From assembly GCA_964187785.1 (NCBI GenBank), contig OZ076409.1, positions 13,022,001-13,086,000 on the forward strand: 64,000 nucleotides of DNA. Direction: 5' to 3'. Positions 29,370 to 58,149 of this stretch are shown piece by piece. The notes under the pieces were generated by a model. It was not told the origin of the DNA and made no database searches. It worked only from the letters and a program-made list of their open reading frames with translations. The translations under genes were made by a program, and so were the position numbers. The stretch comes from Amphiscolops sp. MND2022 (taxonomy: Eukaryota). Every line of letters begins with the position of its first letter. The first letter of the stretch is position 1.

Positions 29370-29714
29370 TACTGTATGACTATTTGGTTTCATCAAAATA
29401 TGACATCTCCGGACAAGATTTGGTGGAATGTTCATAAATCTATCTTTGGGATAAGAAACTACCAAGTATCGAAAAACGTTTTTAGTGTTTTGAGTAATGT
29501 TTAGCCTCTTTCTGTACTCTACAAAAATCAAGTATTAATGTTTCTACATTCAACTGCTAGAAGTGCAGATATTCTAAACCCAGGTAATTTAGCCATCATA
29601 CACCAACATAATATTATGGTGAGATTATTTTTGGTACACAAACTTTCAATTGTAAATCGTGATCCTGACGAAATTAAGGCAATATACATACAATATGCTA
29701 GACATCCTCAGTCA

Positions 29715-30768: not shown

Positions 30769-31497
30769 CCTCAGTCAGTACTCCAAGGAAGTAGGTGGAT
30801 GAGTATTGCAAGCACCTATGGCAACGAGAAATAAAGCAATGTCTTACGTACTCAAATTACTCAGTGCTTAAAGTAAGAAACAGCATCATGAAAATGCCAG
30901 CACCATATCCTACGAAAATTTCTGTCAAATCGCTACGTGTTCTTTTGAATGATTTTGAAGTACGCGAAGTATTATTCAAAAGTAGTAAGAGCAAAACCGA
31001 TATTTGTCCCTATTGTAGAGTTGTCGATGATACTGCACATTTCTTATTTTCCTGTGTCTCATACTAAGAACACCGAAGGAGTTTCATTAAGGAGCTTAAA
31101 AATCAAAAAATTGATGAAACGCTAGTTAGTTTGCTAAATTGCGAAAACAAGCATGTTATAAGCGCGTTGGCTGTCTTTATAGCAAGCATCGATTAATTCT
31201 TATAATCCTATATAATCCTTATAATCCGATAATATATACAGTATCATTTCGATGGAACTCCCGTACTATTCAAGTCATATTGAATTATTTTTCATAACTC
31301 ATTCTCTTTTTGAGCCTTAAGTATAGCGCCGACTTTGAACGTGCGCTTCTTGAAATTTTAGATGTTGTTTCCCGGTGGACCTTAAGACCTTGATCCCTAG
31401 ACGTTTTGTCATATCTTTTTCTAACTGATTCTGGTAACTTTCTTGGCAACTTATTAATGACGAATGTCACCTTGTGCCTAACAAAAACGTGTTCCAG

Positions 31498-31801
31498 ATG
31501 ATAATGGCCATGAAGTCAATTTCCAAATTGTCCAGAGTTTGTCACTTGTGTTCTATTAGAACGCTCTCTAAACTTACAGCCAGTGAACAGGCGATGAGCA
31601 GTTCTCAGCCTACATCAGTGAAGAATAACATTGCTCACTATGATCATGTGTCCAAATTTCCTATGCCTTTGCCTGATTTTGAGAAAATGGACTACGACGT
31701 TAGCCAAGAAGATTTCACATTCGTACTAGATTATCTACCGAAGGCTCTCAAACCTATTTCTCCCAGTACTGTTACCGAACATCCTAGTGGTTGGGTTCCA
31801 G
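31498..31801 (+). CDS. MRPL49: Mitochondrial ribosomal protein L49 (mL49), first coding exon, copy A
   Basis: Presequence-like N-terminus, then SQEDFTFVLDYLP...HPSGWVP resembling the mL49 S.DEY.FVERLLP...TPSGW.PP segment. Canonical G|GTAAGT donor, phase 1, in frame with the exon at 59850. Confidence 0.85.
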
Positions 31802-32569
31802 GTAAGTTGTTTTTATTCCCAAAAGGTTAACTTTTTATCCATTTTGGAAAATGTCTGGTGTCTTTTCCACTATCAAGCTGGTAACACCGAGTTAGCAAAC
31901 TGCAAGACAGCTGGCAACTGAATTTTATCACGTGTTTCATGTGTACAATTTATTGTTGTTTACATCCAGAACATGTTTCTGACATGCGTACGCCTACAAT
32001 TTGTGGGCGTTGCATTGTACAGTCGAACTCGGATCAAAGAAGGCAAAAGAAACATTTGAATGTAAGAAACGTTTTCACCCCTTCGCTTTTATGCAAGACA
32101 AACTTTCTACGCTTTCCTATGCTAGATAGGACAACTGATAAAAGAAACTCTTCTTGCCACCATCCGAGTTCGATTGTAATTGATTGTTCGGCTTTTTTGA
32201 AAGAATTTAAATACTGTAATCATGAGATTTTCATTAGAAAACACTTTCGAAAAGAGGCCCAGCTATAAGTTTTGATAATCCTGAAAAAGTAATACTTTGT
32301 CTACAACAAATTTTGATTGGAATAATGCATTTCTCAAGAAAATATTTCTACAGCCTCGTTTCAATTATTCTATAGCCTCGTGAAAAATTTGCAAAAAAAT
32401 TGAAATCAGACAGAGGATCTTTTTATTGAAACTAGTTGCATTATGAAATGGTATTTTCCAATTGAAAATTCACGTTGTTAACGTTTAAATGAGTTATTTC
32501 AACTCATAAAAGTTAGGTAAATCAACATTGTACAAATACACGAACTTCATATTGGATTCAAATTCACTT

Positions 32570-32991
32570 TTTGGCCAGAAGGGTACCGTGAAGGTAAAGA
32601 CTGTCGATTTACCTAACGACCATTTTCCAGTAGTTTTTTTTAAACTTGATTCGAACACAAATTTTTATCAAACTCTCAACAGATTTCCAAGAGCTCATTT
32701 TTCTTAATGTGCCTCCGAGCCACTAAAGCCTCTAAGGAGTCACCCTATAGAGTAGATTCTTTCTGCGCTCTTTGTCTTTAGAACTTGGATAACATGTCCG
32801 CCATGTTTGACCAATACATTCGTACCATCCACTGTCCCGGGACCTTTCCATTCGTCAATACCTTGTTGCTTGTTAAACACGTTATTCCCAGTCTATAAAC
32901 TGTTCGTTACACCTTCATTCGATCGCAAAGCTTGTCTGATTCTATCTGAATTTTCAACCTGACTGTAGGCTTCTCGCGTTTTATACAAGGC
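32570..32991 (-). mobile_element. Old GalEa-like Copia remnant, 3' part (integrase tail), left of the Polinton
   Basis: Reverse complement reads EWKGPGTVDGTNVLVKHGGHV, matching KWFGPARVLGQDGKIIIVRHGGQV in the intact element at 53732-58138. Confidence 0.65.
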
Positions 32992-33340
32992 AGTAGTATG
33001 CGAATTCCCGATTCGGACCAGCCAAATCATCAAATTTAGCCATTTTTTCAAAAAAAAATCGATAAAATTGGTGTTTTTTCACTACTAAAAAATAAAAAAA
33101 ATTAAGCTCGTAAAATCATTAAAATTTAGCATTTTTTCAAGGCAAATCATCAAAAACTAGCCTTTTTTCACAACTAAAAAATTAACAAAATAAAAATTAA
33201 TGAACAAGTTTTTCCAATGGAAAATTCATTGACCAAGATATAATCATGGAAAAATAACTATTAAATAAATTATTTATCATTCAAAGAATTTGTTGATAAA
33301 TATAGATTAAAAAATGAAGCAACTTCCAATATAAAATAAA
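32992..33340. repeat. Polinton left TIR
   Basis: Reverse complement of ~45920-46351 and ~48447-48878, lacking one ~84-bp subrepeat. Confidence 0.93.
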
Positions 33341-33415
33341 AGAATTTTTCACTAATTTTGAAAAATTATAATTGAAAAATTTTTAATTAAACTATTTTTT
33401 CTTTAATAAATAGTA

Positions 33416-33692
33416 ATGGAGAATTGTAGTATTTGTAATTTAAATTATAAAAAAGTTTTCAAGTCTGATCATTTAAAATCAGTAAAACATCTTGAAAAAT
33501 TAAATCAATATTATTGTAAAAAATGTAATTTATATATGCCTATCTCATAAAATTTCTCATTTAAGTTCAAATGAACATAAAAATAAAACCGAACAACGAC
33601 GTGTTTGGTGTGAAGATTGTAGTAAATATATATCTGATACAACAAGACATTTCCAAAGTGAAATTCATTTACAAAACCGTCAACGGGAAAAC
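33416..33692 (+). pseudogene. Frameshifted N-terminal triple C2H2 zinc-finger extension of pPolB
   Basis: MENCSIC...HLKSVKH...YCKKC then TAA at 33548. The shifted frame continues ISHLSSNEH...WCEDC...HFQSEIH directly into the 33693 ORF. Confidence 0.75.
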
Positions 33693-36600
33693 ATGCAAAA
33701 TTTCGGTAATGGAGTAGAAATAATTATGAATGAAAATACATACATTAAACTTAAAATAAATCCAACTAGTAATTTCGAAGATCATATAAATGAATTACTT
33801 AGTAAAAATTATTTTCCCCGATATAAATATCAATTGAGTTATCTAGCTAAATTTTCAAAAATAGTCAATGGAGAAGAAGTATTTAAAAGATGGATAAAAT
33901 CAGATCTAACGTATAACAACACACAACAAGATACTCATAACACATTAATGCAGAAATTAGATGATGAACAATTAGAAGGATCAGGTTTTGTGTTTCAAGA
34001 AATAGAAGAAGTTATATTAGAAATATATAAAGTTAATGATATTCAAGCATCTTCATATATTGAGTTACCAGGAAAATATAAGGATAGTAAATCGAATATA
34101 AATATAAAGAATAATGATCAATATTGTTTTTTATGGTGTATCCTAGCATATTTATATCCTGTCGAGGATCATAAAGATAGAATATCAAAATATGATATGT
34201 ATAAGCATACTTTGAATATCAAAGGTTTAGAATTCCCAATGAAAGTAAAAGATATGCCCAAATTTGAAAGACTTAATACGCAAAACCCCTTCGGTAAATC
34301 GAATATCAGAGGTCATGGTATAAATGTGTTTGAACTCACTGGAAATGTTTTAACACCAATTTATATTAACGAAAATTACAAACAACCACAAATAGATTTG
34401 TTATTGTATGAAAATCACTATTGTCTAATAACAAAGTTGCATTGTTTAATAAATAAAGATTCACACATGAAACACATCTGCAGGAGATGTTTTACTGCAT
34501 TTCATTCAACCGATGTTCTAAACAACCACATAGAAAGATGTATAAATCAACAACCAACCAATATCACATTAAGTTGGAAGGATCAGTTAAAGTTCGAAGA
34601 TTATTATATGAAAATTCCTGTACCAATAAGAGTATATGCAGATTTTGAATGTATTAATCAACCTCAAAAAGACCCCAAAGTATTATTTAAACAAATTCCA
34701 ATTGCAGTAGGATTTTATGTAATTTCACCATTTGAAAGCAAGTATTATTCATATTTTGGAACAGATTGTACCAAGTGGTTTGTAAAGGAAATGTTAAAAT
34801 TAGAACAAGAAGCAAATAAATATTTTAAAACAAACTTAGAATTACAAATAACTCCTGAAGAAGAAGAATCATTCAAACTTGCAGAAGAGTGTTGGCTTTG
34901 TGAAAATCCACTCGATATGCAAAGCACCTCCGGTGATACTAAGGTTAGAGATCATGATCATCTTACAGGAAAATACAGAGGAGCAGCTCATAAAATATGT
35001 AACATAAATTGTAAACAAAGGTCATCAAGTTTTGTTCCTATATTTTTCCATAACTTTTCTGGGTATGATTGTCATCTTATATTTCAAGAACTCTTAATAC
35101 AAGCTTTCGAAAAGGGGTATGAACCAAAAATAATCCCAAAGTCAATGGAAAATTATGTATCAATTCAAGTAGGTTGCTTAAGATTCTTAGATTCATATCG
35201 TTTTCTAAGTAGTAGTTTAGATAAATTAGTTAAGAGTTTAGACAGTTTCCCAATAATGGATGAAAATGGATTAAAAGACAAATTATTTAAAAAGAAATTA
35301 GCTTATCCATATGAATACTTAAATCTTGATAACTTTCAGGAACCATTAAATTTAACCAAAGAAGATTATTGGTCAACATTAACACAATCTTATCCATCAG
35401 ATGATGATATAAAAAGAACCCAAGAATTAATTTATAAAATTAAAATTAAAAATGGAAGAGAATTAACAATGTTATACTTAAAAATGGATGTTCTTCAATT
35501 AGCTGATGTATTTGAAAACTTTGTGGAAAGTTCTACACGAGAATATAAAATTAATCCTTTGTACTCTTATAGTCTACCTGGTTATACATGGAAAGCAGGA
35601 TTGAAGTTGACTAATATAAAGTTAGACTTTATAAAAGATACAGCGAAGCTGCCCTCCGGTAAAGAATTATTACTACTACTTGAAAATAATATCCATGGAG
35701 GAATTTCAAGTGTAATGGGAGATCGTCACGTGCAATCTAATGAAAATAAAAAAATCTTATATATCGATGGAAATAATCTATATGGATGGGCAATGAGTCA
35801 ATATCTTCCTACTGGCGAATTCGAAATATTACCTCTTAATCGGTGTAATTACACAGATAATTACAATCTAAAACAATTAGTAGAAGATTTATTACAAATA
35901 CCTGATGATAATGAATATGGATTCTTTATAGAATGTGATTTAGAATATCCTGTTGAAATTAAAGAAAAAACAAAAAACTTTCCTTTTTGTCCGTATCAAA
36001 CAAAAGCAGATCCAAACTTATTCTCAGGTTATATGAATAATGTGAATCAACCTAATTACAAACCAACATCAAAACTTATGTGTGATGTAACCAATAAATC
36101 GAAATATATGATACATTATAGGATGTTTAAGTTTTATCTTAACCAAGGGATGAAAGTAACGAAGATACATACTATCTATAAGTTTAAACAAAGTCCATGG
36201 TTAGGTAAATATATCGATCATAATACTCAGAAACGCACAGTAGCGAAAACAAACTTTGAAAAGGATCTTTTTAAATTAATGAATAATGCTTTCTTTGGGA
36301 AGACTATGGAAAATGTAAGAGATAGAACCAATCTAGAATTCATTGATCATTCTCAAATAGATCAAATAATAAAAAGACAATCCAAGTTAAGTTTCAAAGG
36401 AATCGTGGATCATTATTCTAAGTTTAGTGTGTACAAGTTTGATAAAGAAAAAACAGTCTTTGATAAACCAATTTATTTAGGTTTTACAGTTTTAGAACTA
36501 TCAAAACTATTAATGTATGAATTTTATTATAACAAATTACAACCATATTGGAAACAATCCTTACAACTACACTACATGGACACTGATTCTTTCATACTTA

Positions 36601-37232
36601 GTTTTGATAGAAACCACCAAGAACTAATAAACTTTTTACAACAAAATAAAGATGAATTTGATTTCAGTGAATTGGATAAATCGCATGAATTATATAATCC
36701 TATTAACAAGAAAGTTATAGGAAAAATGAAAATTGAAACAAGTCCAGTTTTGGTGTTAGATACCTTCACAGCATTGCGATCAAAGTCATATTCTTTTAGT
36801 TATAATAATCCGAATGGTATCATTCAAAAAGCGAAACAAAAAGGAATACAAAAAGCTCCCAAATGTGAAGAATATCAAAATTCATTGTTTAATTCAGAAA
36901 CATCAAGTTCTACAAATATATCAATTAGATCTAATTTACACAACCTCACAGTTGAACAACAACCTAAGTTGTGTTTGAATCCTTTTGACGATAAACGTTT
37001 GTATATAAATCCAATACAAAGTTTACCATGGGATAAACACACACAAAAAGGTGATTGCCCTTGTATCTATTGTTTGAAATTAATTGGTTTGTATTATAAA
37101 GATTTAACTATAAATGATGACAGTAGCAAGAAAACAGATGAAGAAATATATTGGAGTGTTTGGTATTGGAAACAAGCACTCACCCATCAACAACTTGTGA
37201 AGTTGATAAGTGATCGAGCACATGTTTTATAA
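33693..37232 (+). CDS. Protein-primed family B DNA polymerase with terminal-protein/OTU-like N-terminus and inserted HNH/EndoVII-like domain
   Basis: Exo I YADFE, Exo II HNFSGYD, Exo III YLKMD; polymerase motifs DGNNLYG, KLMNNAFFGK, YMDTDS; CWLC...DHDHLTGKYRGAAH..CN; NNDQYCFLW...ENHY. Confidence 0.95.
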   Translation: MQNFGNGVEIIMNENTYIKLKINPTSNFEDHINELLSKNYFPRYKYQLSYLAKFSKIVNGEEVFKRWIKSDLTYNNTQQDTHNTLMQKLDDEQLEGSGFVFQEIEEVILEIYKVNDIQASSYIELPGKYKDSKSNINIKNNDQYCFLWCILAYLYPVEDHKDRISKYDMYKHTLNIKGLEFPMKVKDMPKFERLNTQNPFGKSNIRGHGINVFELTGNVLTPIYINENYKQPQIDLLLYENHYCLITKLHCLINKDSHMKHICRRCFTAFHSTDVLNNHIERCINQQPTNITLSWKDQLKFEDYYMKIPVPIRVYADFECINQPQKDPKVLFKQIPIAVGFYVISPFESKYYSYFGTDCTKWFVKEMLKLEQEANKYFKTNLELQITPEEEESFKLAEECWLCENPLDMQSTSGDTKVRDHDHLTGKYRGAAHKICNINCKQRSSSFVPIFFHNFSGYDCHLIFQELLIQAFEKGYEPKIIPKSMENYVSIQVGCLRFLDSYRFLSSSLDKLVKSLDSFPIMDENGLKDKLFKKKLAYPYEYLNLDNFQEPLNLTKEDYWSTLTQSYPSDDDIKRTQELIYKIKIKNGRELTMLYLKMDVLQLADVFENFVESSTREYKINPLYSYSLPGYTWKAGLKLTNIKLDFIKDTAKLPSGKELLLLLENNIHGGISSVMGDRHVQSNENKKILYIDGNNLYGWAMSQYLPTGEFEILPLNRCNYTDNYNLKQLVEDLLQIPDDNEYGFFIECDLEYPVEIKEKTKNFPFCPYQTKADPNLFSGYMNNVNQPNYKPTSKLMCDVTNKSKYMIHYRMFKFYLNQGMKVTKIHTIYKFKQSPWLGKYIDHNTQKRTVAKTNFEKDLFKLMNNAFFGKTMENVRDRTNLEFIDHSQIDQIIKRQSKLSFKGIVDHYSKFSVYKFDKEKTVFDKPIYLGFTVLELSKLLMYEFYYNKLQPYWKQSLQLHYMDTDSFILSFDRNHQELINFLQQNKDEFDFSELDKSHELYNPINKKVIGKMKIETSPVLVLDTFTALRSKSYSFSYNNPNGIIQKAKQKGIQKAPKCEEYQNSLFNSETSSSTNISIRSNLHNLTVEQQPKLCLNPFDDKRLYINPIQSLPWDKHTQKGDCPCIYCLKLIGLYYKDLTINDDSSKKTDEEIYWSVWYWKQALTHQQLVKLISDRAHVL

Positions 37233-37330
37233 AAATAAATATATTGTTTTATAATTATTATTATTTATAAAAATAAATTTATTTATCATATCAGCAAAGC
37301 TGTATTAATATATATTTAAATTATATTTAT

Positions 37331-38557
37331 TCATAATAAATCAAAATGCCTTTGTCCATCACTACTGATACTTATCAGTTTAGGTGTTAGGACTTGGGCA
37401 TAAGCTATATAATCTGCTACATCAATGGCAGCATTAAATTTAATTTCTAACCTAATAGGTTGACTCGCAATATTATCTTTTTGTTTGGATAAATCAAATA
37501 CATAGAAATTATAATTTGTCCTGAATGTATGCAAATCAATAAACGGATTGAGTAGATTAGTTTCACTTTTTAACAAATAGAAGTTTTCAATTTCACTGTA
37601 TGCTTGATCATATTTGTCTCTATCATAATCACATTCTATTCCATCATCGGGATATTTCTCTGATCCTATTTTACAAACAGCATTTGAAACAGGTAAACGA
37701 TCAAATATTGCATTATCATGTGTTTGTGAATCAATTTTATTTCTAGCTTGAAATCCAACAATTACAAAAATTGGTGTTGATTCTCCACTATTACCTAATT
37801 CAAATGTCCAATTGTTATTCGTGTTAACATCTTTTCTAAAAACAACTCGTTCAATATAATACAGTTCAGTTGGATCTTTGTCTAATATTTGATCCATCAC
37901 AAGTTGTTGGTTTTCCATTGATGGTGTGTAGTGTGGAATATACCAGATGTCTTTTATATTTATTTTTGCAGCATCTACACCGTTGTCCCTTATAATGGGG
38001 TCGTTATTATTATTTCGTTTTAAAGTAAGAGTATAACCCAATTCATAAGTTATTTTTTCTTGATCAGCAAATCCAAATATATCACTCAACCTAATTCTAA
38101 CAAAAAAGGTTCCTTTTTCTGTTTTGTTTGTTGTTAGTTCTTGTCTTCTAGTTGCTTGTGATTCTTCAAACCCATACATCAATTGACTTGTTTGTTGATT
38201 AGATGTTAAAAGTTTATACATCAATGAAATTGGGTGTAGATTATCAACTTTTTCTAAATGTTTACCTGAACTAGTAGTTAACTTAGCTTCACTAAATAAA
38301 GCAACGGGTCCAAAATTAACTAAACTTATTTGATCACCATCTGCATATCTTGTATCATCATTTTTAAGAACTTCAAATTCTAATGATACGTATGAGTTTT
38401 GTAAACAAATATATGCATCTTCTCTTGGGAAGATGATGGAAATATTTGAATTATTATTGTTGATTGTAGCTAAACTACTAGGTGAGTATTTAATAAAATC
38501 AATTTTATGAATAGGTTTATCCATAGCATATTTATTTTTCAATGAAAATATTTCCAT
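37331..38557 (-). CDS. Major capsid protein (double jelly-roll type)
   Basis: 408 aa, beta-rich; NSYVSLEFEV...LVNFGPVALFSEAKL and FYVFDLSKQ...IRLEIKF patterns typical of Polinton MCPs; ORF open. Confidence 0.85.
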   Translation of the reverse strand: MEIFSLKNKYAMDKPIHKIDFIKYSPSSLATINNNNSNISIIFPREDAYICLQNSYVSLEFEVLKNDDTRYADGDQISLVNFGPVALFSEAKLTTSSGKHLEKVDNLHPISLMYKLLTSNQQTSQLMYGFEESQATRRQELTTNKTEKGTFFVRIRLSDIFGFADQEKITYELGYTLTLKRNNNNDPIIRDNGVDAAKINIKDIWYIPHYTPSMENQQLVMDQILDKDPTELYYIERVVFRKDVNTNNNWTFELGNSGESTPIFVIVGFQARNKIDSQTHDNAIFDRLPVSNAVCKIGSEKYPDDGIECDYDRDKYDQAYSEIENFYLLKSETNLLNPFIDLHTFRTNYNFYVFDLSKQKDNIASQPIRLEIKFNAAIDVADYIAYAQVLTPKLISISSDGQRHFDLL

Positions 38558-38618
38558 TTAAATAGGAATAAAAATTAGGATTAAAATTTTATACTGATTT
38601 TATTTTTACTTAAAATAT

Positions 38619-39140
38619 TTATCCTAAAAAAGTAAACTCAGAATTTAGTTTAGTTTTATTGTTTTTATACACATCGTATGTTTGTTTTAATTTGTTGTAT
38701 TCATTCAGATCTATTTTATTGTCTTCTAAACATTTCGAATGTAGTTTTTGGTAGTCGTGTAGTGTTCTACCAGCAAGAGTATATTTTTTAATTTTGTGTT
38801 GTTCTTTTCTTTTCAGGTACTCACCAAGAAGTTTACTGATTATACATAAACCTGCACCTATACCACTTGCTATAGGTACAACAAAAAATCCAACTCCTGT
38901 GACACTTAACGTGACACATGTTGATGATACACCCAACACCGACACTCCATCAATAGATTGAATTAAACAATTTATAAGCTTGTATTGTTTACTTTTCTTT
39001 TTATATTTTTTAGCTTCATGATTATAAAAATTTTGAATATCTTTTATATTTTGAATTGAATTATTGAAACTATTTATTTCTTTCAATCGCATATCAAGAT
39101 TATCTGATTCACGTGAACAAGGATACAATTTTTCACTCAT
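38619..39140 (-). CDS. Putative membrane-active protein (adintovirus 'GasderminX'-type)
   Basis: LYP N-terminus, KKY helix, Gly-rich hydrophobic hairpin (TLSVTGVGFFVVPIASGIGAG) and SKCLEDNKI..EY tail. Confidence 0.65.
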   Translation of the reverse strand: MSEKLYPCSRESDNLDMRLKEINSFNNSIQNIKDIQNFYNHEAKKYKKKSKQYKLINCLIQSIDGVSVLGVSSTCVTLSVTGVGFFVVPIASGIGAGLCIISKLLGEYLKRKEQHKIKKYTLAGRTLHDYQKLHSKCLEDNKIDLNEYNKLKQTYDVYKNNKTKLNSEFTFLG

Positions 39141-39164
39141 TTAATTTTAAATAAAAACCTAATT

Positions 39165-39883
39165 TTAGTTTTCAAAAAGTATGAAATTTATCTCGGTATC
39201 GGTTAGTTTCATTCTATATTTAAGGTCAACAATATCTTTGTATTCATCTTTCTTTAAGCACTTCACGATATCTTCTCGCGTTGAATAGTCTAAATCAGAT
39301 AAATAATACTCACCATCTGATGTCTTTATTTCTGTTCCGCATTTTTCCAACAAGTATTCATCACTAAAATATAAGTACTCATTAAAGATTTGGTCTTTAT
39401 TTTCAAATGAGTCAAACAATCCTTTGTTGTATAGCAATTGAATAGTATCTTTGACTGCTTGATTTTTACATTTTTCCAATTCCAAAATAAGGTTTCTCTC
39501 AAAATGATTACGTAAAATGGTTTGTTGTTCTTCCACTAACTTGGCAGCATCCAAAATTATTTTTTTCTTTTCTAAAAATTTATTTTTAACATCTTGTTCT
39601 AAGTATTTCAGGTTGATTTTCAAGTCTTCTATTTGCGTAGCCAGCTTTGCTGTATCTTTATTTATGTCTAAGAATAACTTGCATTGACTACTACCTTGGT
39701 TTCACCATCATCAAAATTAATTTCTTGTACACTTTGTAGGTTTTCAAAGTTTTCTAATTTGTCAGAAATATTAATAAGTTTTATATTAAATAATTTGGTT
39801 TGTGATTCGAATTCTTTTTCTAATTTCTCAATCTTATCTTTTTGTAAGCTTTCGGCACTATAACCAAATTTATGAATTGACAT
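39165..39883 (-). pseudogene. Hypothetical coiled-coil Polinton protein, probably one gene split by a frameshift near 39680
   Basis: 71-aa ORF (MSIHKFG) and 152-aa ORF that lacks an ATG. The downstream frame is open upstream (LFLDINKDTAKLATQIEDLKINL) and overlaps the first ORF's end. Confidence 0.45.
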
Positions 39884-39900
39884 TATTTATTTAAATATAA

Positions 39901-40753
39901 TTACTCATATTGGTGGAAAATATTCATACTTTCTAACGTTTTGTTGTTAGATTTAAAATTGAATACACTTCTTAAAAGTTCTTGTTCATAATAATTTCCT
40001 TCTATTTGTTCGTTATTTTCATCTAAACCATACGTAACTGGGTTAGTATTGTTATTTTTATGTATTTTAAAAAGTTCTCTGTTCCAATTTGTTGTATGAC
40101 CTTTTGAATAAATGTTCCTTTTGTCAGGAACTCTTACATAGTCTCCCACTTGAAATTTGGGTATTTTTCATTTTTATTAATTTTAATATTGATAATTTTA
40201 TTAGTATTGGTAACCATTTCAAATGGTGTCATTTTTGTTGTACCATGAACACGATTATTATATTTTTCCATAGCAGCATCAAGGTGATTCAACCAACAAG
40301 CTTTACCTTCAATGTACATGGGTTCTTTAATTAAGTCTAAAAGTGTTCTATTGAATCGTTCAACAAAAACGGCTTTTAAATCTGAATTAGTTGAATAAAT
40401 ATGAATGTTTTGTTCCTTCAGGAAATCCAAAAATGTTTTATTATAAAACTCTTTACCTCTATCTGACCAAATTTTATGAGGTTTCTATTACTAGTTTCTA
40501 TTAGTTTTTTGAATGCAGTTGTTGTACTTTTTCCTGATTTATCTTTGAGAGGAATTGCCCATGCATACTTAGTATGATTGTCAATTATTGTGAAAATGAA
40601 TTTGTAGTTTTTATTATATTTTGATAAGCTAGACCTGTCTATCAGATCAATACTCCAACACTCATCTTTATAGTGAGTTTGTATTTGAATTCTTTGAAAC
40701 TTCTTGATTACAGGAGAGAATATTTCTTTAACAATTTCTTTCTTTTCATTCAT
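39901..40753 (-). pseudogene. Retroviral-like (rve) DDE integrase, two frameshifts
   Basis: WSIDLID, IDNHTKYAWAIPLK, SDRGKEF (shifted frame), VERFNRTL, YNNRVH, VGDYVRV and YYEQEL spread over three ORF pieces. Confidence 0.92.
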
Positions 40754-40767
40754 TTATTTCCTAATAA

Positions 40768-41802
40768 ATGAATAAAAAATTATATATAGGTTTATTATGT
40801 TTAATTTTTATTATAATTTTGTGGGTGTATTGGTATTATATTAAACCTAATTATTATAAAAAATTATACCAAAAACTAGAACAATTCAAGGGATTTAAAT
40901 ATTCTCATTTAACTAACAAAGAAGAAGAACAAGAACTTACTCCACCAAATACAAATACTAATTGTCATTTTTTGGTGTATGGTACTAGTGGATCAGGTAA
41001 GACTAGTTTCCTTAAGTATTATTTAGATCAAACTAAAACAAATTTTATAGTATTCGGTAGAGATGAGACTGAGTTTAAAGATAATCATATACCTTTGTTA
41101 CAGTTAGAAAATATTGAAATAGAGAAACTTGCTAATAGAACTATAATTTTATATGATGCAGGAGCATTCAAACAACTCAGAACTAAAGTAGAAGACTTAT
41201 TTCGGTTTGGTAGAGACAATAATATACAAGTTATATACCTTGCTCACTATGCAAAGTATGTTCTCCCAATAGTGAGAGAGAATTGTTTTAAATTATATAT
41301 CACAATAAATAATCCAGATAGTTTCTTTGAAACCATAATACAAACTTATTCAATCAAAGAAGATCTCAAATGGAAACAATATCGTAGTCAGTTAGAATTT
41401 GGTGTAATTGAATTTGATACTAGATCACAAAAGTATAAAATACTCAAAAGTATAATCAAAAGTACCAACTAATCTACGATACAACTAAACATAAATGGAG
41501 TCCTGAAGATTATGTAAAATATGAAAGTTATTTCTTTACAGGTGAAGAATATAATAAACTTAAAATATTCCTAGAAGATATGTCAGATCAAACAATTGAA
41601 ATAACACCTTTTAATGTAGCTTATTATTATGTATATTATTGTAAACAAAATAAAAGTGAATGAATCTAAAATAGACAACTACGTTGAACGCATGCAACAA
41701 CCACTAATTTCAGATCAACTTAAAGAGGAATTTAAGAAAATTATAATTGATCAAGCAATCAGGTTTAGTAAAAGTAATTTAAAAATGGGTCTGATTTCTT
41801 AG
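40768..41802 (+). pseudogene. A32/FtsK-like ATPase 1 with N-terminal transmembrane segment; degenerate, frameshifted C-terminus
   Basis: Walker A GTSGSGKT, Walker B-like IILYD, FRFGRDNNI (GRH-like). Coding-like sequence continues in shifted frames to TAG at 41802. Confidence 0.75.
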
Positions 41803-41806
41803 TAAA

Positions 41807-41904
41807 AAATCACTAAGCAAATTCACTAAGAGCATATATTTTTCACTAAGCAAATAAGGTTACACTTAAAACATCATGCTCTTAGTGAATTTGCTTAGTG
41901 ATTT
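41807..41904. repeat. 29-bp perfect inverted repeat built of CACTAAG units
   Basis: AAATCACTAAGCAAATTCACTAAGAGCAT (41807-41835) and its reverse complement (41876-41904). Confidence 0.85.
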
Positions 41905-41925
41905 AGTGATTTTTTTACTAAATAA

Positions 41926-42888
41926 ATGAAGTGTATAATTTGTGGAAAAAGTAATGAAAAATCTGTCTGCTCCGATTGTGAGAATAAAAAAAGATGTAAA
42001 GAATGTAATATACTGAAAACTACAAATGGTACAAATATAAATTGGTATAAATATAGAAATGGTAAATTGTATAGTACATGTATAGAATGTTTCAATAAAA
42101 AAGTAAAATGTGAATTCTGTAATAAAGAATTAAATAAAACTTATTTATCAAAACATTTAAAAAGATGTAATATCAATCATGATAATACAAATAATGAAAT
42201 TATAAATCATAGTGAAAATCATGATAGTAATATTATTACAAATGATGATACTGATAATAATGATAATATTATGTTCACCGGAGGCCAGCAAAGCTGTAAT
42301 CGAACATTGATAGTTGGTCCATCATTTTGTGGTAAGACCCATTTGTTATTAAACAAATTACAATTAATTCGTTTAGATAATCCTGAACAAAAGATATGTA
42401 TCATTACGAGGAGTCCGGAACAATACAATAAAATTGAAATAGAAGATGTTTCAGTGGAAGAAGATTTAGGTGATAAAAGTATTTAGATAAAAGATTTTCA
42501 AAATTGTTGTGTTGTATTTGATGATATGTTAGACTCCAATCAGAAATTAATAGATCCATTTTTTACTAGGGGAAGACATAATGATCTGGATGTTTATTAT
42601 TTATCACAGTCATATTTTGATTTACCTAAAAGAACAATTAGAAACAATAGTAATATTATAATTTTATTTCAACAAACATTGAAAGATGTAGAACACATTT
42701 ATAGAGACATAGCAGGTTTTGATATGTCTAATGATGAATTCAAAAGTTTATGCAGAGAAGCATGGCGGGATAATTATAATTATTTATTAATAAATAGGTT
42801 AGAAGATAAAAATGGGAGTAAGTATATGATATGTAATGAATCCAATATGCAATACCAGATATTTAATCCACAAACTGATCATTTTTAG
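41926..42888 (+). pseudogene. A32-like packaging ATPase 2 with Cys-rich N-terminus; in-frame premature TAG at 42484
   Basis: CxxC pairs, Walker A GPSFCGKT, Walker B VVFDD and TRGRHNDLDVYYLSQSYFDLPKRTIRNN, all in one frame across the stop. Confidence 0.9.
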
Positions 42889-43837
42889 TAAAAGTGCTTA
42901 CTAGGTTTTGATGTTGATTTGTTGTAATACATTGGTATTGTAAAAGTTTATCTGCAATTGCTATGATTTGTTCACTAAGCATAGGATTATCATTTCCTCC
43001 TACTTTTTCAAAATAGAGTAGTTTTAATTGATCTACAAGCTCACCAGGATCCGATGGAAGGAAGACATACTGATTAAATCCACTTCCTAATTGGGATAGT
43101 TGATAAGGAATATGTTGATATATGTATTGATTAATTAAATCTTTAATGAAATAATATCTCTTTGATTTTTTATCTCCATAATTTATATTATATTTCATAT
43201 CATTCAAAAAAGAATAAATTAGATTCACATTTTGTGGTTGCGTGTCTAGCTGTGCATTAGTTATAAAATATTGAAGATCGGGATCATTTAAATTGTATTT
43301 GTTATCACTACTCAAGAAGGTTAGTGTATTATTTTTAATTAGTACTTGTTGAGGATTGATAGGGTTAATTATGAATAAATTTGGATTACCTTCACCGCTT
43401 TGCGTAACAGGTTCTAAACTAAATTGACTTTTGTTTTTGTCATTAAGTAAATTAGAAACTGTCTTGATTATAGTAGAATCAAGTTGGTTGGAATTCACAA
43501 GATCTGTAACAAGTTGATTATTACGGTTAGTAATTTCATCATATTCTTTAATCGATTTTTGTAAATTTTTATTCAAAGCGTTACTCGATTCTCGTATTGC
43601 TTGTGTTGTAGTTTGAGTAGAATCACGTAACGCCTGTAATTGTTTTTCAGATTCTAGCTTGGTTTGGTTTTGACTTTTTTTCTGATTTTCCGTAATAGGT
43701 TCAAAAACTTCTTCCATATCGTAATGAAAGTCTTGCTTCCCTAATTTCTCTTTTAATCTTTCAGCTTTTATTAAAGATTTTGATTCTTGCATTTTTTTAA
43801 ATTTTTCTAAATCATCTCGATTATGAATTGAATACAT
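42863..43837 (-). CDS. Conserved-looking hypothetical Polinton protein
   Basis: 324 aa; C-terminal GSG...LPSDPGELVDQLKLL...GGNDN...IIAIADKL of a type seen in Polinton ORFs. Confidence 0.65.
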   Translation of the reverse strand: MYSIHNRDDLEKFKKMQESKSLIKAERLKEKLGKQDFHYDMEEVFEPITENQKKSQNQTKLESEKQLQALRDSTQTTTQAIRESSNALNKNLQKSIKEYDEITNRNNQLVTDLVNSNQLDSTIIKTVSNLLNDKNKSQFSLEPVTQSGEGNPNLFIINPINPQQVLIKNNTLTFLSSDNKYNLNDPDLQYFITNAQLDTQPQNVNLIYSFLNDMKYNINYGDKKSKRYYFIKDLINQYIYQHIPYQLSQLGSGFNQYVFLPSDPGELVDQLKLLYFEKVGGNDNPMLSEQIIAIADKLLQYQCITTNQHQNLVSTFTKNDQFVD

Positions 43838-43886
43838 AATTTATTATTCATAAAAAATAATATTTAATTTACAGCTCGGCTGTAAA

Positions 43887-44288
43887 TCAATGAATTTTAC
43901 CCAAGTACAGACCTTTTCCTTGATGAACAAATTTTATAATATCAGGAGCAGTTGCGGCTATCATTCGAGGATTTTTACTTGCTGCTGCAGTACCGATATT
44001 AGCTGCGAGTTCTAATGCTCTTCCAGGATTGTTCAAAATTTTCTTTCCGACATTCTTGGCGGCTTTTCCTATACCTCGGAAAAAGTCACCTAATCCTTCT
44101 GCTTGTATAGTTTGATCAGATACTATAAGTGATTTATTTCTTTTACAAGTTGAACAAGTACCTCTTAATAATTTAACAGCTGCTCCAGTTTTTTTATTTT
44201 GAGTAATATCTCCACGAATATTTGTGGTAGCGGAATAATGTTTTCCACCAACACAATATGAATTATTTTTAAATTTACTAAAGCTCAT
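43887..44288 (-). CDS. Small basic virion core/membrane-lytic-like protein
   Basis: YC...GTCSTC N-terminus, amphipathic GLGDFFRGIGKAAK helix and GKGLYL tail. Confidence 0.65.
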   Translation of the reverse strand: MSFSKFKNNSYCVGGKHYSATTNIRGDITQNKKTGAAVKLLRGTCSTCKRNKSLIVSDQTIQAEGLGDFFRGIGKAAKNVGKKILNNPGRALELAANIGTAAASKNPRMIAATAPDIIKFVHQGKGLYLGKIH

Positions 44289-44297
44289 TTAATAGAA

Positions 44298-45393
44298 TTA
44301 AATCTTGATGATTTGAATTGTAAAGGTTAATGTTTCGGAGTTGAAATCAACTGGGTTATGATTGTTATCCTCAAGGAAAAATTGAATACTATCTAACCTT
44401 GTTTTGTTTATTTTTTTATACAAAATAATATTGGGTTCTTTTATAATTTTATTTCCGGGAGGAGCACTAAGATTAAATGAAAATAAAATTTGTTCTCGTA
44501 TACCATTAACAATTGAACCATCTACACAATCACATTTAAGATGAACTTTGTCTGTAGTTGTTATCATAACTGGTTTTTCTGATATATGAGTTCCTTCTAT
44601 ATAGTTTGTATCTGTGAATCCTAGAAGTTCATTTAATTTTGAATTAAAATAAATGGGGTTAGAAGTTGTTAAAACTGATTTCATTGATATTGTATCTGCT
44701 TCAATGTTAATATGCAAAGCACCTTCGGTATTTAAACCATTTATTTTAAATTCTCCATTTGCTTGGTTGTAATATCGTAATTTTTGTTCTATTGCTGTGT
44801 TCAGATCAGTTAGTTCATATATTCCAGGTTGGTTTTATTTCTATTTTCTCATTCATAATGGGGAGATCAATAGTTTCGAAAGATGGGATTTGTATTGTAT
44901 TCACAAGGGATTTGGCATTCTCGTCAATGTTCAGCCATTCTTCATTTTTATATTGACTAATTTTATACTTGATTTTATCAAGATCATTTTTTAGAAGCTT
45001 CTTTTTATTTTTAAATGAGGTATCCATTAAATTATAAACTGTTTTAACAGAATTTGATCGTTTGGTTCTATGAAGGTATTCAATATTCATTACAAGTTTT
45101 GTATCAATCCCATTAAGTTGTTCGTCTGTTAGTTGTATCTGGAATGAATTATTTTTGTTGGTAATATTATATACACTGTTATATACTTCTAAACTTGTTA
45201 CTCCCATCATCCATTGTTCTGGCAGCTCCAAGGGAACATCAAATGAAAAAGATTCTTTTTGTTTATTCATTTTAAATTCTAAAGTTTCTTGTGGTTTGGA
45301 TAAGGTATTTTCAACAATATCCAAATTAGATTTTGCAATACTCAATAAAAGAGATTCTTTTTTATCATAGGTTACAAAATTTGATAGATCCAT
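44298..45393 (-). pseudogene. Minor capsid (penton) protein, one frameshift near 44830
   Basis: GVTSLEVYNSVYNIT N-half. Correcting the shift gives PGIYELTDLN, which runs into HLKCDCVDGSIVNG...PPG...VDFNSET. Confidence 0.85.
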
Positions 45394-45396
45394 TTA

Positions 45397-45591
45397 TTAA
45401 GAGAAAAATTGTTTAAATCCACTTGCGGATATCTTATTTATAAATTCTTGGTTTTGTTTTGATAATTGTTTGTTTTGATTATTTTTTGGAGTATTTTTTT
45501 CTATTATTTTCTCATCAAATTGATTCTCATTGGTATTCATTGGTTTTTGAATAATTTTAAATTGAGCTGAATAATTATCAATTTTCTTCAT
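45397..45591 (-). CDS. Small hypothetical Polinton protein
   Basis: 64-aa ORF tightly packed between the protease and penton genes; TAAATG start. Confidence 0.5.
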   Translation of the reverse strand: MKKIDNYSAQFKIIQKPMNTNENQFDEKIIEKNTPKNNQNKQLSKQNQEFINKISASGFKQFFS

Positions 45592-45598
45592 TTAATAT

Positions 45599-45994
45599 TC
45601 ATAAACTTTGGTAGTATAAATTTAAAACTGCATTTTTGAAGCCTATAATTTTTGTGAGATATAAAACATATAAACAATACGCTGCACAATAACTGTCGTC
45701 TTTCTGGATTTGATATTCTGAATAGATACCATTATTAATTTGTTTTGTTATATTTAGTGGTGGTGGACAGCCATATGAATCAAAATAAAACTCGTTAACA
45801 AACATAACCCAATGTGTTCCTTTAGTTGGATGTAAGTTAACTATACCACTGGTGGTTATAAAGTTATCATCTCTCATATATATTCCACAAGATGCGTTCA
45901 TGAGTTTTAAGATTTCTTTTATTTCTACATTGGAAGTTGCTTCATTTTTTAATCTATATTTATCAACAAATTCTTTGAATGATAAATAATTCAT
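45599..45994 (-). CDS. Adenain-like cysteine protease
   Basis: GTHWV, YFDSYG and QIQ...SYCAAYC (His-Asp-Gln-Cys catalytic set). Confidence 0.92.
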   Translation of the reverse strand: MNYLSFKEFVDKYRLKNEATSNVEIKEILKLMNASCGIYMRDDNFITTSGIVNLHPTKGTHWVMFVNEFYFDSYGCPPPLNITKQINNGIYSEYQIQKDDSYCAAYCLYVLYLTKIIGFKNAVLNLYYQSL

Positions 45995-46351
45995 TTAATA
46001 GTTATATTTCCATGATTATATCTTGGTCAATGAATTTTCCATTGGAAAAACTTGTTCATTAATTTTTATTTTGTTAATTTTTTAGTTGTGAAAAAAGGCT
46101 AGTTTTTGATGATTTGCCTTGAAAAAATGCTAAATTTTAATGATTTTACGAGCTTAAATTTTTTTATTTTTTAATAGTGAAAAAACACCAATTTTATCGA
46201 TTTTTTTTGAAAAAATGCTTAAATTTGATGGTTTGATTAACCTATCAAATTTTTTTAGTAGTGAAAAAACACCAATTTTATCGATTTTTTTTTGAAAAAA
46301 TGGCTAAATTTGATGATTTGGCTGGTCCGAATCGGGAATTTGCATACTACT
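45920..46351. repeat. Polinton right TIR (first copy)
   Basis: Inverted match to 32992-33340; overlaps the protease 5' end; followed by CAAGGC. Confidence 0.93.
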
Positions 46352-46825
46352 CAAGGCTATCAAATTTCCAGGTCCTTTTCCAGATTGTGATGTTACATTT
46401 AGGTAATTTAGGGTTTATGCCTCTCACAATCTGAGAAAACCCGTCTTTATTCGAAAGACAATTTCTCACAAATGACCGATATTTGATTAGCGTTGTATCG
46501 AACAGGTCCCATGAACGATCAGATTTCAGCTTCAGGAACATCTCGGCCAGTACTGCGTTGTGTCGCAGATTCAGTTTCACCACGGGCTTTCAGCAGTGTT
46601 TTTCATTCCAATTCCGTAATTTTCTGCTATGGATTGAAAATGTTCATAGTCAAACTCGCCCCTATTATCCGTTATTATTTTCAAGGGCACTCCAGAATTC
46701 CAAATCCATTGTGATATAAAAGTTAATAAAAGTGTTTGGCGTTTTATTTATAATAACCGCACGGCCATATTTCCACCAAAACAATATGAATTATTTTTAA
46801 ATTTACTAAAGCTCATTTAATAGAA

Positions 46826-47921
46826 TTAAATCTTGATGATTTGAATTGTAAAGGTTAATGTTTCGGAGTTGAAATCAACTGGGTTATGATTGTTATCCTC
46901 AAGGAAAAATTGAATACTATCTAACCTTGTTTTGTTTATTTTTTTATACAAAATAATATTGGGTTCTTTTATAATTTTATTTCCGGGAGGAGCACTAAGA
47001 TTAAATGAAAATAAAATTTGTTCTCGTATACCATTAACAATTGAACCATCTACACAATCACATTTAAGATGAACTTTGTCTGTAGTTGTTATCATAACTG
47101 GTTTTTCTGATATATGAGTTCCTTCTATATAGTTTGTATCTGTGAATCCTAGAAGTTCATTTAATTTTGAATTAAAATAAATGGGGTTAGAAGTTGTTAA
47201 AACTGATTTCATTGATATTGTATCTGCTTCAATGTTAATATGCAAAGCACCTTCGGTATTTAAACCATTTATTTTAAATTCTCCATTTGCTTGGTTGTAA
47301 TATCGTAATTTTTGTTCTATTGCTGTGTTCAGATCAGTTAGTTCATATATTCCAGGTTGGTTTTATTTCTATTTTCTCATTCATAATGGGGAGATCAATA
47401 GTTTCGAAAGATGGGATTTGTATTGTATTCACAAGGGATTTGGCATTCTCGTCAATGTTCAGCCATTCTTCATTTTTATATTGACTAATTTTATACTTGA
47501 TTTTATCAAGATCATTTTTTAGAAGCTTCTTTTTATTTTTAAATGAGGTATCCATTAAATTATAAACTGTTTTAACAGAATTTGATCGTTTGGTTCTATG
47601 AAGGTATTCAATATTCATTACAAGTTTTGTATCAATCCCATTAAGTTGTTCGTCTGTTAGTTGTATCTGGAATGAATTATTTTTGTTGGTAATATTATAT
47701 ACACTGTTATATACTTCTAAACTTGTTACTCCCATCATCCATTGTTCTGGCAGCTCCAAGGGAACATCAAATGAAAAAGATTCTTTTTGTTTATTCATTT
47801 TAAATTCTAAAGTTTCTTGTGGTTTGGATAAGGTATTTTCAACAATATCCAAATTAGATTTTGCAATACTCAATAAAAGAGATTCTTTTTTATCATAGGT
47901 TACAAAATTTGATAGATCCAT
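46826..47921 (-). pseudogene. Duplicate minor capsid gene with the same frameshift
   Basis: Translations identical to 44298-44717 and 44815-45393. Confidence 0.85.
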
Positions 47922-48126
47922 TTATTAAGAGAAAAATTGTTTAAATCCACTTGCGGATATCTTATTTATAAATTCTTGGTTTTGTTTTGATAATTGTTTG
48001 TTTTGATTATTTTTTGGAGTATTTTTTTCTATTATTTTCTCATCAAATTGATTCTCATTGGTATTCATTGGTTTTTGAATAATTTTAAATTGAGCTGAAT
48101 AATTATTAATTTTCTTCATTTAATAT

Positions 48127-48522
48127 TCATAAACTTTGGTAGTATAAATTTAAAACTGCATTTTTGAAGCCTATAATTTTTGTGAGATATAAAACATATA
48201 AACAATACGCTGCACAATAACTGTCGTCTTTCTGGATTTGATATTCTGAATAGATACCATTATTAATTTGTTTTGTTATATTTAGTGGTGGTGGACAGCA
48301 ATATGAATCAAAATAAAACTCGTTAACAAACATAACCCAATGTGTTCCTTTAGTTGGATGTAAGTTAACTATACCACTGGTGGTTATAAATTTATCATCT
48401 CTCATATATATTCCACAAGATGCGTTCATGAGTTTTAAGATTTCTTTTATTTCTACATTGGAAGTTGCTTCATTTTTTAATCTATATTTATCAACAAATT
48501 CTTTGAATGATAAATAATTCAT
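48127..48522 (-). CDS. Duplicate adenain-like protease (DSYG changed to DSYC)
   Basis: Differs from the first copy at two residues (N/K and G/C). Confidence 0.85.
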   Translation of the reverse strand: MNYLSFKEFVDKYRLKNEATSNVEIKEILKLMNASCGIYMRDDKFITTSGIVNLHPTKGTHWVMFVNEFYFDSYCCPPPLNITKQINNGIYSEYQIQKDDSYCAAYCLYVLYLTKIIGFKNAVLNLYYQSL

Positions 48523-48878
48523 TTAATAGTTATTTTTCCATGATTATATCTTGGTCAATGAATTTTCCATTGGAAAAACTTGTTCATTAATTTTTATTTT
48601 GTTAATTTTTTAGTTGTGAAAAAAGGCTAGTTTTTGATGATTTGCCTTGAAAAAATGCTAAATTTTAATGATTTTACGAGCTTAAATTTTTTTATTTTTT
48701 AATAGTGAAAAAACACCAATTTTATCGATTTTTTTTGAAAAAATGCTTAAATTTGATGGTTTGATTAACCTATCAAATTTTTTTAGTAGTGAAAAAACAC
48801 CAATTTTATCGATTTTTTTTGAAAAAATGGCTAAATTTGATGATTTGGCTGGTCCGAATCGGGAATTCGCATACTACT

Positions 48879-49870
48879 CAAGGCTATCAAATTTCCAGGT
48901 CCTTTTCCAGATTGTGATGTTACATTTAGGTAATTTAGGGTTTATGCCTCTCACAATCTGAGAAAACCCGTCTTTATTCGAAAGACAATTTCTCACAAAT
49001 GACCGATATTTGATTAGCGTTGTATCGAACAGGTCCCATGAACGATCAGATTTCAGCTTCAGGAACATCTCGGCCAGTACTGCGTTGTGTCGCAGATTCA
49101 GTTTCACCACGGGCTTTCAGCAGTGTTTTTCATTCCAATTCCGTAATTTTCTGCTATGGATTGAAAATGTTCATAGTCAAACTCGCCCCTATTATCCGTT
49201 ATTATTTTCAAGGGCACTCCAGAATTCCAAATCCATTGTGATATAAAAGTTAATAAAAGTGTTTGGCGTTTTATTTATAATAACCGCACGGCCATATTTT
49301 GAAAATAGATCAGTGAAATGTATGTAGTATACATTTGGATCTAGTTGATCAAGGTCCATAGCTACAACTTCATTGAAGTCATATTTTCCTGCTACCTTGA
49401 AAACAATAGGTAACAATTTGTTTAAAAAAAAAACAAAAAATGACGTGAAAACTAAAGTGAATGGCCATTTTTTCAGCATTGAGATAAACTCAGGTCTGGT
49501 ATCAAAATCCAAAAAAAGCTTTTCCTGACATTAACTCGGAACATTCGAACTTTTCAGTTGGATACAATAAAGATCAAAAGAACTTTTTGCTCTGTCCAAT
49601 TTTGGGAAGTGTTTACAAACAGCTTTCAGTGGTTAACTTGTCACACGAGTTCGCAATGAAACAGCCTTAGATTCTGGCAAGATCCCGCAGCTTCCGGGTC
49701 ATCCCCGACGAGAATGCGACAATTCCCGTTCCCTACTTACAGTTGGAAGCGAAAAACAGCCGTCACCCGAAAACCCAGTTACGCGCACATGAACGGTGCG
49801 GTTATCCATCAGCCGAATCCCCATAATGTCTTTTAAAATTTCTTTCTCGGCTTTCTTCGTCGCAAGTTTG
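48879..49870 (-). mobile_element. Old GalEa-like Copia remnant (integrase core and gag fragment), right of the Polinton
   Basis: DFNEVVAMDL...YYIHFTDLFSKY, TDNRGEF and RHNAVLAEMFLKL align by eye with the intact element's integrase. Confidence 0.75.
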
Positions 49871-51236: not shown

Positions 51237-51540
51237 ATGATAATGGCCATGAAGTCAATTTCCAAATTGTCCAGAGTTTGTCACTTGTGTTCTATTAGAA
51301 CGCTCTCTAAACTTACAGCCAGTGAACAGGCGATGAGCAGTTCTCAGCCTACATCAGTGAAGAATAACATTGCTCACTATGATCATGTGTCCAAACTTCC
51401 TATGCCTTTGCCTGATTTTGAGAAAATGGACTACGACGTTAGCCAAGAAGATTTCACATTCGTACTAGATTATCTACCGAAGGCTCTCAAACCTATTTCT
51501 CCCAGTACTGTTACCGAACATCCTAGTTGTTGGGGTCCAG
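51237..51540 (+). pseudogene. MRPL49: Duplicate MRPL49 exon 1 (copy B), open but with SGWVP changed to SCWGP and donor GTAAGC
   Basis: Near-identical to 31498-31801. Whether it is functional cannot be decided from sequence. Confidence 0.6.
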
Positions 51541-53362: not shown

Positions 53363-53449
53363 TGAAAAACTGTAATACTTCAACAGACTATATTAAAAAC
53401 CCCACCGGACATTACATCTAGAAACACATAAACATTATATATTGTCACA
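53363..53449 (-). repeat. Copia 3' LTR (87 bp)
   Basis: Identical to 58150-58236. Confidence 0.95.
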
Positions 53450-58148: not shown

Positions 58149-58149
58149 A

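What the first reader, a model, noticed from the sequence alone, without database searches (positions are those of the whole stretch)
32992..46351. Complete endogenous Polinton/adintovirus-like genome with a full virion module
Seen: TIRs, 6-bp TSD, pPolB, MCP, penton, protease, ATPases, integrase and membrane-active ORFs within a compact 13.4 kb. MCP, protease and the pPolB core are open, while integrase, penton, both ATPases and the pPolB N-terminus carry lesions, so this copy is a recent fossil that can be reconstructed. Whether the lineage is new needs a search.
Basis: partly seen in the sequence, partly recalled or inferred. Interest (0 to 1): 0.8.

Follow-up and report, generated by a model that had tools for sequence, protein, structure and literature searches.

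The report
Broken Polinton provirus in acoel worm
A full-length but broken copy of a Polinton, a known kind of virus-like jumping gene, sits in what is likely an acoel worm genome among several hundred relatives whose capsid genes stayed conserved and swapped parts, so the family likely spread at least partly as virus particles.

Summary
Window 32992-46351 is a 13,360-bp Polinton/Maverick with inverted ends, a 6-bp target duplication (the empty site survives in a sister copy of the host repeat), pPolB, integrase, protease, two P-loop ATPases, a double jelly-roll capsid protein (AlphaFold pLDDT 89.5; best matches iridovirus, PBCV-1, mavirus capsids) and a weakly supported penton. Six genes carry eight breaks, so this copy is dead. 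The host is likely an acoel. The genome holds 734 matches to a capsid motif and 609 termini of this subfamily; all 10 sisters read in full are broken too. Differences shared between copies show strong purifying selection in virion genes, copies are recombinant mosaics, and the penton carries an exchangeable insert (at least 7 types). Polintons in acoels and high Polinton loads in animals are already on record, and this scan noted Polintons on other DNA of this genome. Verdict: new member of a known kind; no close named relative (best 29%). Virions are inferred, not shown.

The parts
32986..32991 (.). Left target-site duplication (CAAGGC)
   Evidence: single copy at empty site 52697-52702
32992..33344 (+). 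Left terminal inverted repeat, extended: carries an inverted copy of the first ~97 nt of the protease gene region and joins the pPolB leader at a short microhomology
   Evidence: same junction in 6 of 18 copies with this terminus type
33416..37232 (+). Protein-primed DNA polymerase B: N-terminal zinc fingers, OTU-like Cys/His motifs, Exo I-III, endonuclease VII/HNH insert, Pol A/B/C motifs; frameshift near 33530
   Evidence: motif names recalled
37331..38557 (-). Major capsid protein, double jelly-roll, open (408 aa)
   Evidence: PF21738 E 8e-18; pLDDT 89.5; Foldseek E ~1e-13 to iridovirus, PBCV-1, mavirus, Sputnik capsids
38619..39140 (-). 173-aa predicted membrane protein, weak SLATT-like match, open
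   Evidence: hydropathy peak 2.2; NCBIfam SLATT_4 E 0.012, below cut-off
39165..39886 (-). Gene of about 237 aa, no family, frameshift near 39680
39901..40753 (-). Retrovirus-like (rve) integrase, two frameshifts (near 40480 and 40160)
   Evidence: sister frame PF00665 E 1e-12; D-D-E motifs in window pieces
40768..41780 (+). ATPase 1, A32/FtsK-like with N-terminal hydrophobic helix; two frameshifts (near 41440 and 41640) and substitutions in catalytic motifs
   Evidence: sister frame PF04665 E 9e-8 over cut-off
41807..41904 (.). Perfect 29-bp inverted repeat between the two ATPase genes, role unknown
41926..42888 (+). ATPase 2, zinc-finger N-terminus plus P-loop domain, 23% identical to ATPase 1; in-frame stop at 42484-42486
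   Evidence: phrog_2666 E 5e-6
42863..43837 (-). 325-aa conserved protein, likely internal virion protein (PZ-like, recalled), open
   Evidence: shared dN/dS 0.06-0.15
43887..44288 (-). 133-aa protein: zinc knuckle, glycine motif like a protease site, amphipathic helix (predicted membrane-lytic), open
   Evidence: hydrophobic moment 2.1, 1 of 300 shuffles as high; DUF5679 E 0.62
44298..45393 (-). Penton (minor capsid protein) with hypervariable insert; frameshift near 44830
   Evidence: natural sister frame folded: best Foldseek hit mavirus penton E 7.6e-3, VIA Z 6.9; variability
45397..45591 (-). 64-aa small ORF kept in sisters (61-71 aa)
45599..45994 (-). Adenain-like cysteine protease, open (131 aa), His-Asp-Gln-Cys motifs present
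   Evidence: no library hit, assignment by recalled motifs
45914..46351 (-). Right terminal inverted repeat with 84-88-bp subterminal units
46352..46357 (.). Right target-site duplication (CAAGGC)
46770..49296 (+). Tandem duplicate of 44242-46769 (penton, protease, right repeat, host flank); second right end at 48878
   Evidence: 3 of 3 other double right ends examined are also tandem duplications

Best explanation
This is an integrated, now broken copy of a Polinton (Maverick, polintovirus) in what is likely an acoel worm, left by a family that likely replicated as linear DNA with its own protein-primed polymerase, recombined freely and was likely packaged into icosahedral particles. Shown: terminal repeats, 6-bp target duplication, gene set, capsid fold, eight breaks, hundreds of sister copies, purifying selection on virion genes, mosaic copies and an exchangeable penton insert. 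Inferred: the integrase inserted the genome; pPolB copied it from the ends, where pairing of the two ends let one end be rebuilt from the other (the extended left repeat); co-replicating genomes swapped blocks; capsid, penton, ATPase, protease and the two small membrane-active candidates built and delivered particles. After insertion this copy decayed and its right end was duplicated in tandem.
For: Anatomy and empty site. Capsid fold. Target duplications match in 7 of 10 and 14 of 18 sister pairs. 609 termini against 2 in the control; 734 capsid-motif matches against 0. Codon differences shared by copies give dN/dS 0.06 for capsid, 0.06-0.11 penton core, 0.09 protease, 0.10-0.13 ATPase domains, 0.12-0.20 pPolB, while private ones give 0.2-0.8 and include stops. 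Site incompatibility rises from 0.28 within 100 bp to about 0.6 beyond 300 bp; neighbour statistic 0.352 against 0.601, 0 of 300 permutations as low; the nearest sister changes along the element. 2 of 7 copies have different terminus types inside one matched target duplication. Penton core 90% against insert 41% median identity, 7 insert groups among 53 proteins; 4 of 28 genomic copies match the window's insert DNA. Host: COX1 75% to Symsagittifera, 73% to Baltalimania, 65% or less to named non-acoels.
Against: No particle, free end or transcript was seen. All 10 sisters read in full are broken and none of 18 repeat pairs is identical, so current activity is not shown. The penton model is poor (pLDDT 58.7, no hit at E 0.001). 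pPolB and protease hit no library family for their main domains. Copies were picked as best matches to capsid or ATPase 1, which lowers dN/dS for those genes, and my counts have no correction for base bias. Purifying selection on capsid genes could reflect particles that never leave the cell.
Confidence: 0.85

Rival explanations
1. The family multiplied only inside germ-line or stem cells as a self-synthesizing transposon; the capsid module serves an intracellular role or is inherited from a viral ancestor, and no infectious particles were involved in the expansion.
For: Hundreds of chromosomal copies with target duplications need heritable insertion. No relative found among IMG/VR contigs with two peptide patterns (weak). 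PMC10748475 states that Polinton virions have not been observed.
Against: Virion genes are as constrained as the integrase and more than pPolB; the penton insert, a predicted surface domain, is the most variable coding part.
Confidence: 0.3
2. The mosaic pattern and mixed ends come from gene conversion among chromosomal copies after insertion, not from recombination among replicating genomes.
For: Hundreds of 90-95% identical targets exist; the genome shows many local duplications.
Against: Shared variants are strongly purified and breaks sit at different places in different copies; the extended repeat recurs with one junction at 7 loci with different target sites.
Confidence: 0.15
3. The breaks and the 2.5-kb duplication are assembly errors and the copy is intact.
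For: The duplicate is 99.7% identical; no reads could be laid.
Against: 7 of 8 window proteins, among them four truncated ones, occur letter for letter on a 449-kb contig of another public assembly (may share reads); break zones are not in unusually long single-base runs; one substitution separates the two right ends, one of which still matches the left end.
Confidence: 0.05

Closest known systems
Animal Polintons/Mavericks (adintoviruses of Starrett et al., PMC8502044; polintoviruses), probably with a Beta-type virion module
   Same: pPolB with OTU-like motifs, rve integrase, FtsK/A32 ATPase, adenain-like protease, double jelly-roll capsid, penton, small membrane-active candidates, terminal repeats, 6-bp duplication, 13-15 kb; SLATT genes appear on adintovirus maps.
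   Different: Two distant P-loop ATPase genes in tandem; helical exchangeable penton insert; best named capsid relative is a Hydra vulgaris protein at 29%. Alpha or Beta placement not tested by tree.
Acoel Polintons already on record (28 Xenacoelomorpha pPolB1 rows in PMC10748475 supplement; Maverick 4.5% of Praesagittifera naikaiensis, PMC6451197)
   Same: Same host group; pPolB lengths up to 1251 aa like the 1247-1261 aa here; high load.
   Different: Those records give coordinates or a repeat class only; no virion module, selection or mosaicism described in the passages seen. Sequence relation untested.
Coral polintoviruses (PMC11131425)
   Same: Hundreds to more than a thousand capsid-bearing insertions per animal genome (1,676 regions, about 7.8% of one genome).
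   Different: Expression was shown there; not testable here.
Nematode and oomycete pPolB2 with HNH insert (PMC10748475)
   Same: An HNH-type nuclease inside pPolB (here endonuclease VII-like, residues 449-501, between Exo I and II).
   Different: The paper calls the insert unique to those groups; homology to this one is untested.
Mavirus penton (PMC6048507)
   Same: Single jelly-roll with an insertion domain thought to meet the host.
   Different: Mavirus insert is a beta-sandwich; this one is predicted helical and varies within one family.

Membership tests
Polinton/Maverick | 13-25 kb with 100-1500-bp terminal inverted repeats | tested here: met
   13,360 bp; repeats 353/438 bp; definition from PMC10748475
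Polinton/Maverick | 5-8-bp target-site duplication | tested here: met
   6 bp, with empty site; 14 of 18 sisters
Polinton/Maverick | Protein-primed family B polymerase | tested here: met
   Exo I-III and Pol A/B/C motifs in order in a 1242-codon frame (motifs recalled); no Pfam or PDB hit for the core
Polinton/Maverick | rve integrase | tested here: met
   sister frame PF00665 E 1e-12 over cut-off; broken in the window
Polinton/Maverick | [quoted passage not shown] | tested here: met
Polinton/Maverick | Single jelly-roll penton | tested here: inconclusive
   low-confidence model; mavirus penton top Foldseek hit E 7.6e-3, VIA Z 6.9 among helical hits of similar Z; atlas neighbours are large-DNA-virus proteins
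Polinton/Maverick | A32/FtsK packaging ATPase | tested here: met
   ATPase 1 PF04665 over cut-off in a sister frame; a second P-loop gene beside it
Polinton/Maverick | Adenain-like protease | tested here: inconclusive
   His, Asp, Gln, Cys motifs in order, no library hit
Adintovirus Alpha class | PolB of pfam03175 type | tested here: not met
   no PF03175 match for window or sister pPolB at E up to 0.1 and 10
Adintovirus Beta class | Divergent OTU-PolB and Terrapene-class capsid clade, GasderminX and Cupiennin genes | not testable with these tools
   reference sequences not at hand; the supplement held is cut before the sequence files; OTU-like Cys/His and an amphipathic-helix gene fit
Active polintovirus | Virions or free linear genomes | not testable with these tools
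   no sequencing run could be laid

The most novel reading that the evidence does not exclude
Acoels host a freely recombining population of true polintoviruses with serotype-like, swappable penton spikes, two packaging-type ATPases and self-repairing ends, still circulating as particles; a culturable worm would then be the place to see the first virions of an animal Polinton.
Probability: 0.25. Interest if true: 0.75.

Novelty: new member of a known kind. Interest (0 to 1): 0.4.

Why it matters
The copy itself is an ordinary dead Polinton. The family matters more: whether animal Polintons make infectious particles is open (PMC10748475, passage), and here several hundred copies give population-level evidence in one genome: virion genes under purifying selection, block exchange between copies, a variable penton insert and ends rebuilt from each other. 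It marks acoels as a good host in which to look for natural particles.

Tried and rejected
Sequencing runs: none was listed, so expression, free ends and the duplication junction were not examined. IMG/VR scan with two capsid peptide patterns: 128 pattern matches, no relative. PDB sequence searches for capsid, pPolB and protease gave nothing useful. Phage collection matched only the endonuclease VII insert. Apparent positive selection in the ATPase 2 N-terminus (15 N to 1 S with about 9 copies) fell to dN/dS 0.42 (zinc finger) and 0.11 (ATPase) with about 30 copies: rejected. The idea that the protease start codon in the extended left repeat was removed by selection: rejected, it is kept in 6 of 6 sisters (first table). 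The extended repeat as a lesion of this copy: rejected, inherited. Terminal duplications as part of the element's mechanism: not supported, tandem duplications also occur inside copies and in host DNA. Literature: 'polinton'+'acoel' gave 4 papers, none on acoel elements by title and abstract; acoel names were absent from the held, cut part of the adintovirus supplement; no paper met the panhandle search; the two-ATPase search gave no listed paper with 'two ATPases' or 'second ATPase'; the penton search gave no Polinton hypervariability paper. The 2006 Polinton paper is not held, so an older report of a second ATPase cannot be excluded; Repbase and bioRxiv supplements were not seen.

Full report
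Observation. The element runs from 32992 to 46351, begins AGTAGT, ends ACTACT and is flanked by CAAGGC on both sides. It sits in a host segment whose older duplicate lies in the same window (92-97% identical); that duplicate has a single CAAGGC at the matching place, which shows the target duplication directly and makes the insertion younger than the host duplication. GC is 0.27 inside and 0.40 outside. The terminal repeats match at 348 of 353 bases, the right one having one more 84-bp unit.

Genes. The 408-aa ORF matches PF21738; its model from a 50-sequence alignment has pLDDT 89.5 and matches capsid proteins of Singapore grouper iridovirus, PBCV-1, mavirus and Sputnik (E 2e-13 to 3e-11, TM 0.52-0.60), and in BFVD a bracovirus protein, adomavirus LO7 and a MELD virus protein. 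pPolB shows OTU-like Cys and His, Exo I-III, an endonuclease VII insert and Pol A/B/C motifs (motif names recalled; for the insert); the TP-vOTU-Exo-palm layout is described in PMC11161782 (passages). Natural sister frames give rve (E 1e-12) and Pox_A32 (E 9e-8). A second P-loop gene with a zinc-finger N-terminus follows the first and is only 23% identical to it. The penton was folded from a natural sister frame: pLDDT 58.7, top Foldseek hit mavirus penton (E 7.6e-3), VIA Z 6.9-8.1 to capsid chains of EhV-201, PBCV-1 and mavirus amid helical hits of like Z: likely, not proven. The protease rests on catalytic motifs only. The 173-aa and 133-aa ORFs have a long hydrophobic stretch and a strong amphipathic helix; membrane activity is a prediction.

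Breaks. Against sister frames the window copy has eight breaks in six genes: pPolB (1), a 237-aa gene (1), integrase (2), ATPase 1 (2), ATPase 2 (1 stop), penton (1). Four of the truncated proteins recur exactly in another public assembly (7 of 8 proteins looked up), which may share reads but argues against an assembler slip.

Host and family. The mitochondrial COX1 of this assembly is closest to acoels. A capsid search gave 3016 candidates, of which 102 were scored, all 92% or more identical; ATPase 1 gave 2282 candidates, 123 scored. Exact patterns count 609 termini of this subfamily (control 2) and 734 capsid motifs (control 0): several hundred copies, about 1% of the genome if most are full length (inference). 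I read 10 sisters in full, taken from the 11 best capsid matches (one on a short contig skipped): all 10 carry broken genes, and 7 show both ends with matched duplications inside the fetched range. Of 18 further end pairs, 14 have matched duplications; none has identical repeats, median difference 5%. The window copy, at 1.4%, is among the younger ones.

How the family evolved. Codon differences found in two or more copies give dN/dS of 0.06-0.20 in 16 of 17 gene segments; the exception, the ATPase 2 N-terminus, fell to 0.42 and 0.11 with more copies. Private differences give 0.2-0.8 (1.0 in one short linker) and include stops. So all genes, the virion module included, worked while the family multiplied, and decay followed insertion. 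Copies are mosaics: the nearest sister changes from block to block, and incompatibility between sites rises with distance (0.28 to 0.6; 0 of 300 permutations); 2 of 7 copies have different terminus types within one target duplication. The penton has a conserved core and an insert (about residues 85-220) of at least 7 types; only 4 of 28 copies with the penton 3' end match the window's insert DNA. The left repeat of this copy reaches into the protease gene and replaces 450-600 bp found in the ten sisters; 6 of 18 copies with the same terminus share this junction, so it arose once in a replicating genome, as expected if one end is rebuilt from the other during strand-displacement synthesis (recalled from adenovirus work, inference). 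Limits: samples were ranked by similarity, counts are uncorrected, and selection does not prove release from cells.

Comparison with what is known. The element meets the tested Polinton criteria (PMC10748475, passages, section 8 and supplement rows). PMC8502044 (parts 1-2 of 6, passages, part of the supplement) defines Alpha by a pfam03175 PolB, which is not matched here, so a Beta-like placement is plausible but untested. Acoel Polintons are on record as 28 table rows from two accessions with identical coordinates and as 4.5% Maverick content in Praesagittifera (PMC6451197, passages). Coral genomes hold up to 1,676 such regions (PMC11131425, passages). Mosaicism at module level is reported for these viruses (bioRxiv 10.64898/2026.10.13.758929, abstract); penton insertion domains are known from mavirus (PMC6048507, passages). 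No named protein is close: of 18 capsid clusters looked up, one has an organism name, a Hydra protein at 29%. Three earlier notes of this scan concern Polintons on other pieces of this genome.

Verdict. Real, correctly described, dead copy of a large acoel Polinton family; new member of a known kind. Confidence 0.85 in the identity and history, about 0.55 that particles took part in the spread, about 0.25 that they still do. Interest 0.4.

Noticed in passing
window 53363-58236: Copia LTR retrotransposon with an open 1480-codon frame, identical 87-bp LTRs and a 5-bp target duplication: very young; it sits in the duplicate of the segment that took the Polinton.
   Followed up: partly
window 31307-50953 and 51046-59651: Older tandem segmental duplication of host DNA (92-97%); one copy gained the Polinton, the other the Copia.
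   Followed up: partly
L091:1027-1189: 163-bp mini element made of the two Polinton ends only, with a matched 6-bp duplication: a non-autonomous derivative.
   Followed up: partly
L043:410-3311 and L044:7484-9999: A sister copy is nested in a more distant Polinton (65-75% DNA identity) with another terminus type.
   Followed up: no
L069, L071, L072, L076, L041 (left arms): Longer copies carry varying small ORFs (68-135 aa) in the left arm; two tested had no Pfam match: a variable accessory slot.
   Followed up: partly
L088, L089, L090, L037: Tandem duplications of 1.4-3.9 kb at 92-99.9% identity at ends of or inside Polinton copies; kilobase tandem duplication seems common in this genome.
   Followed up: partly
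window 41807-41904: Perfect 29-bp inverted repeat with CACTAAG units between the ATPase genes; similar units lie in the terminal repeats.
   Followed up: no
window 32992-46351: CpG observed/expected 0.58 in the element against 0.90 outside.
   Followed up: no
window 3451-6513, 12444-15784, 28916-30622: Decayed Bel/Pao-like and Gypsy-like frames (by look, untested) and a MITE-like inverted repeat family.
   Followed up: no
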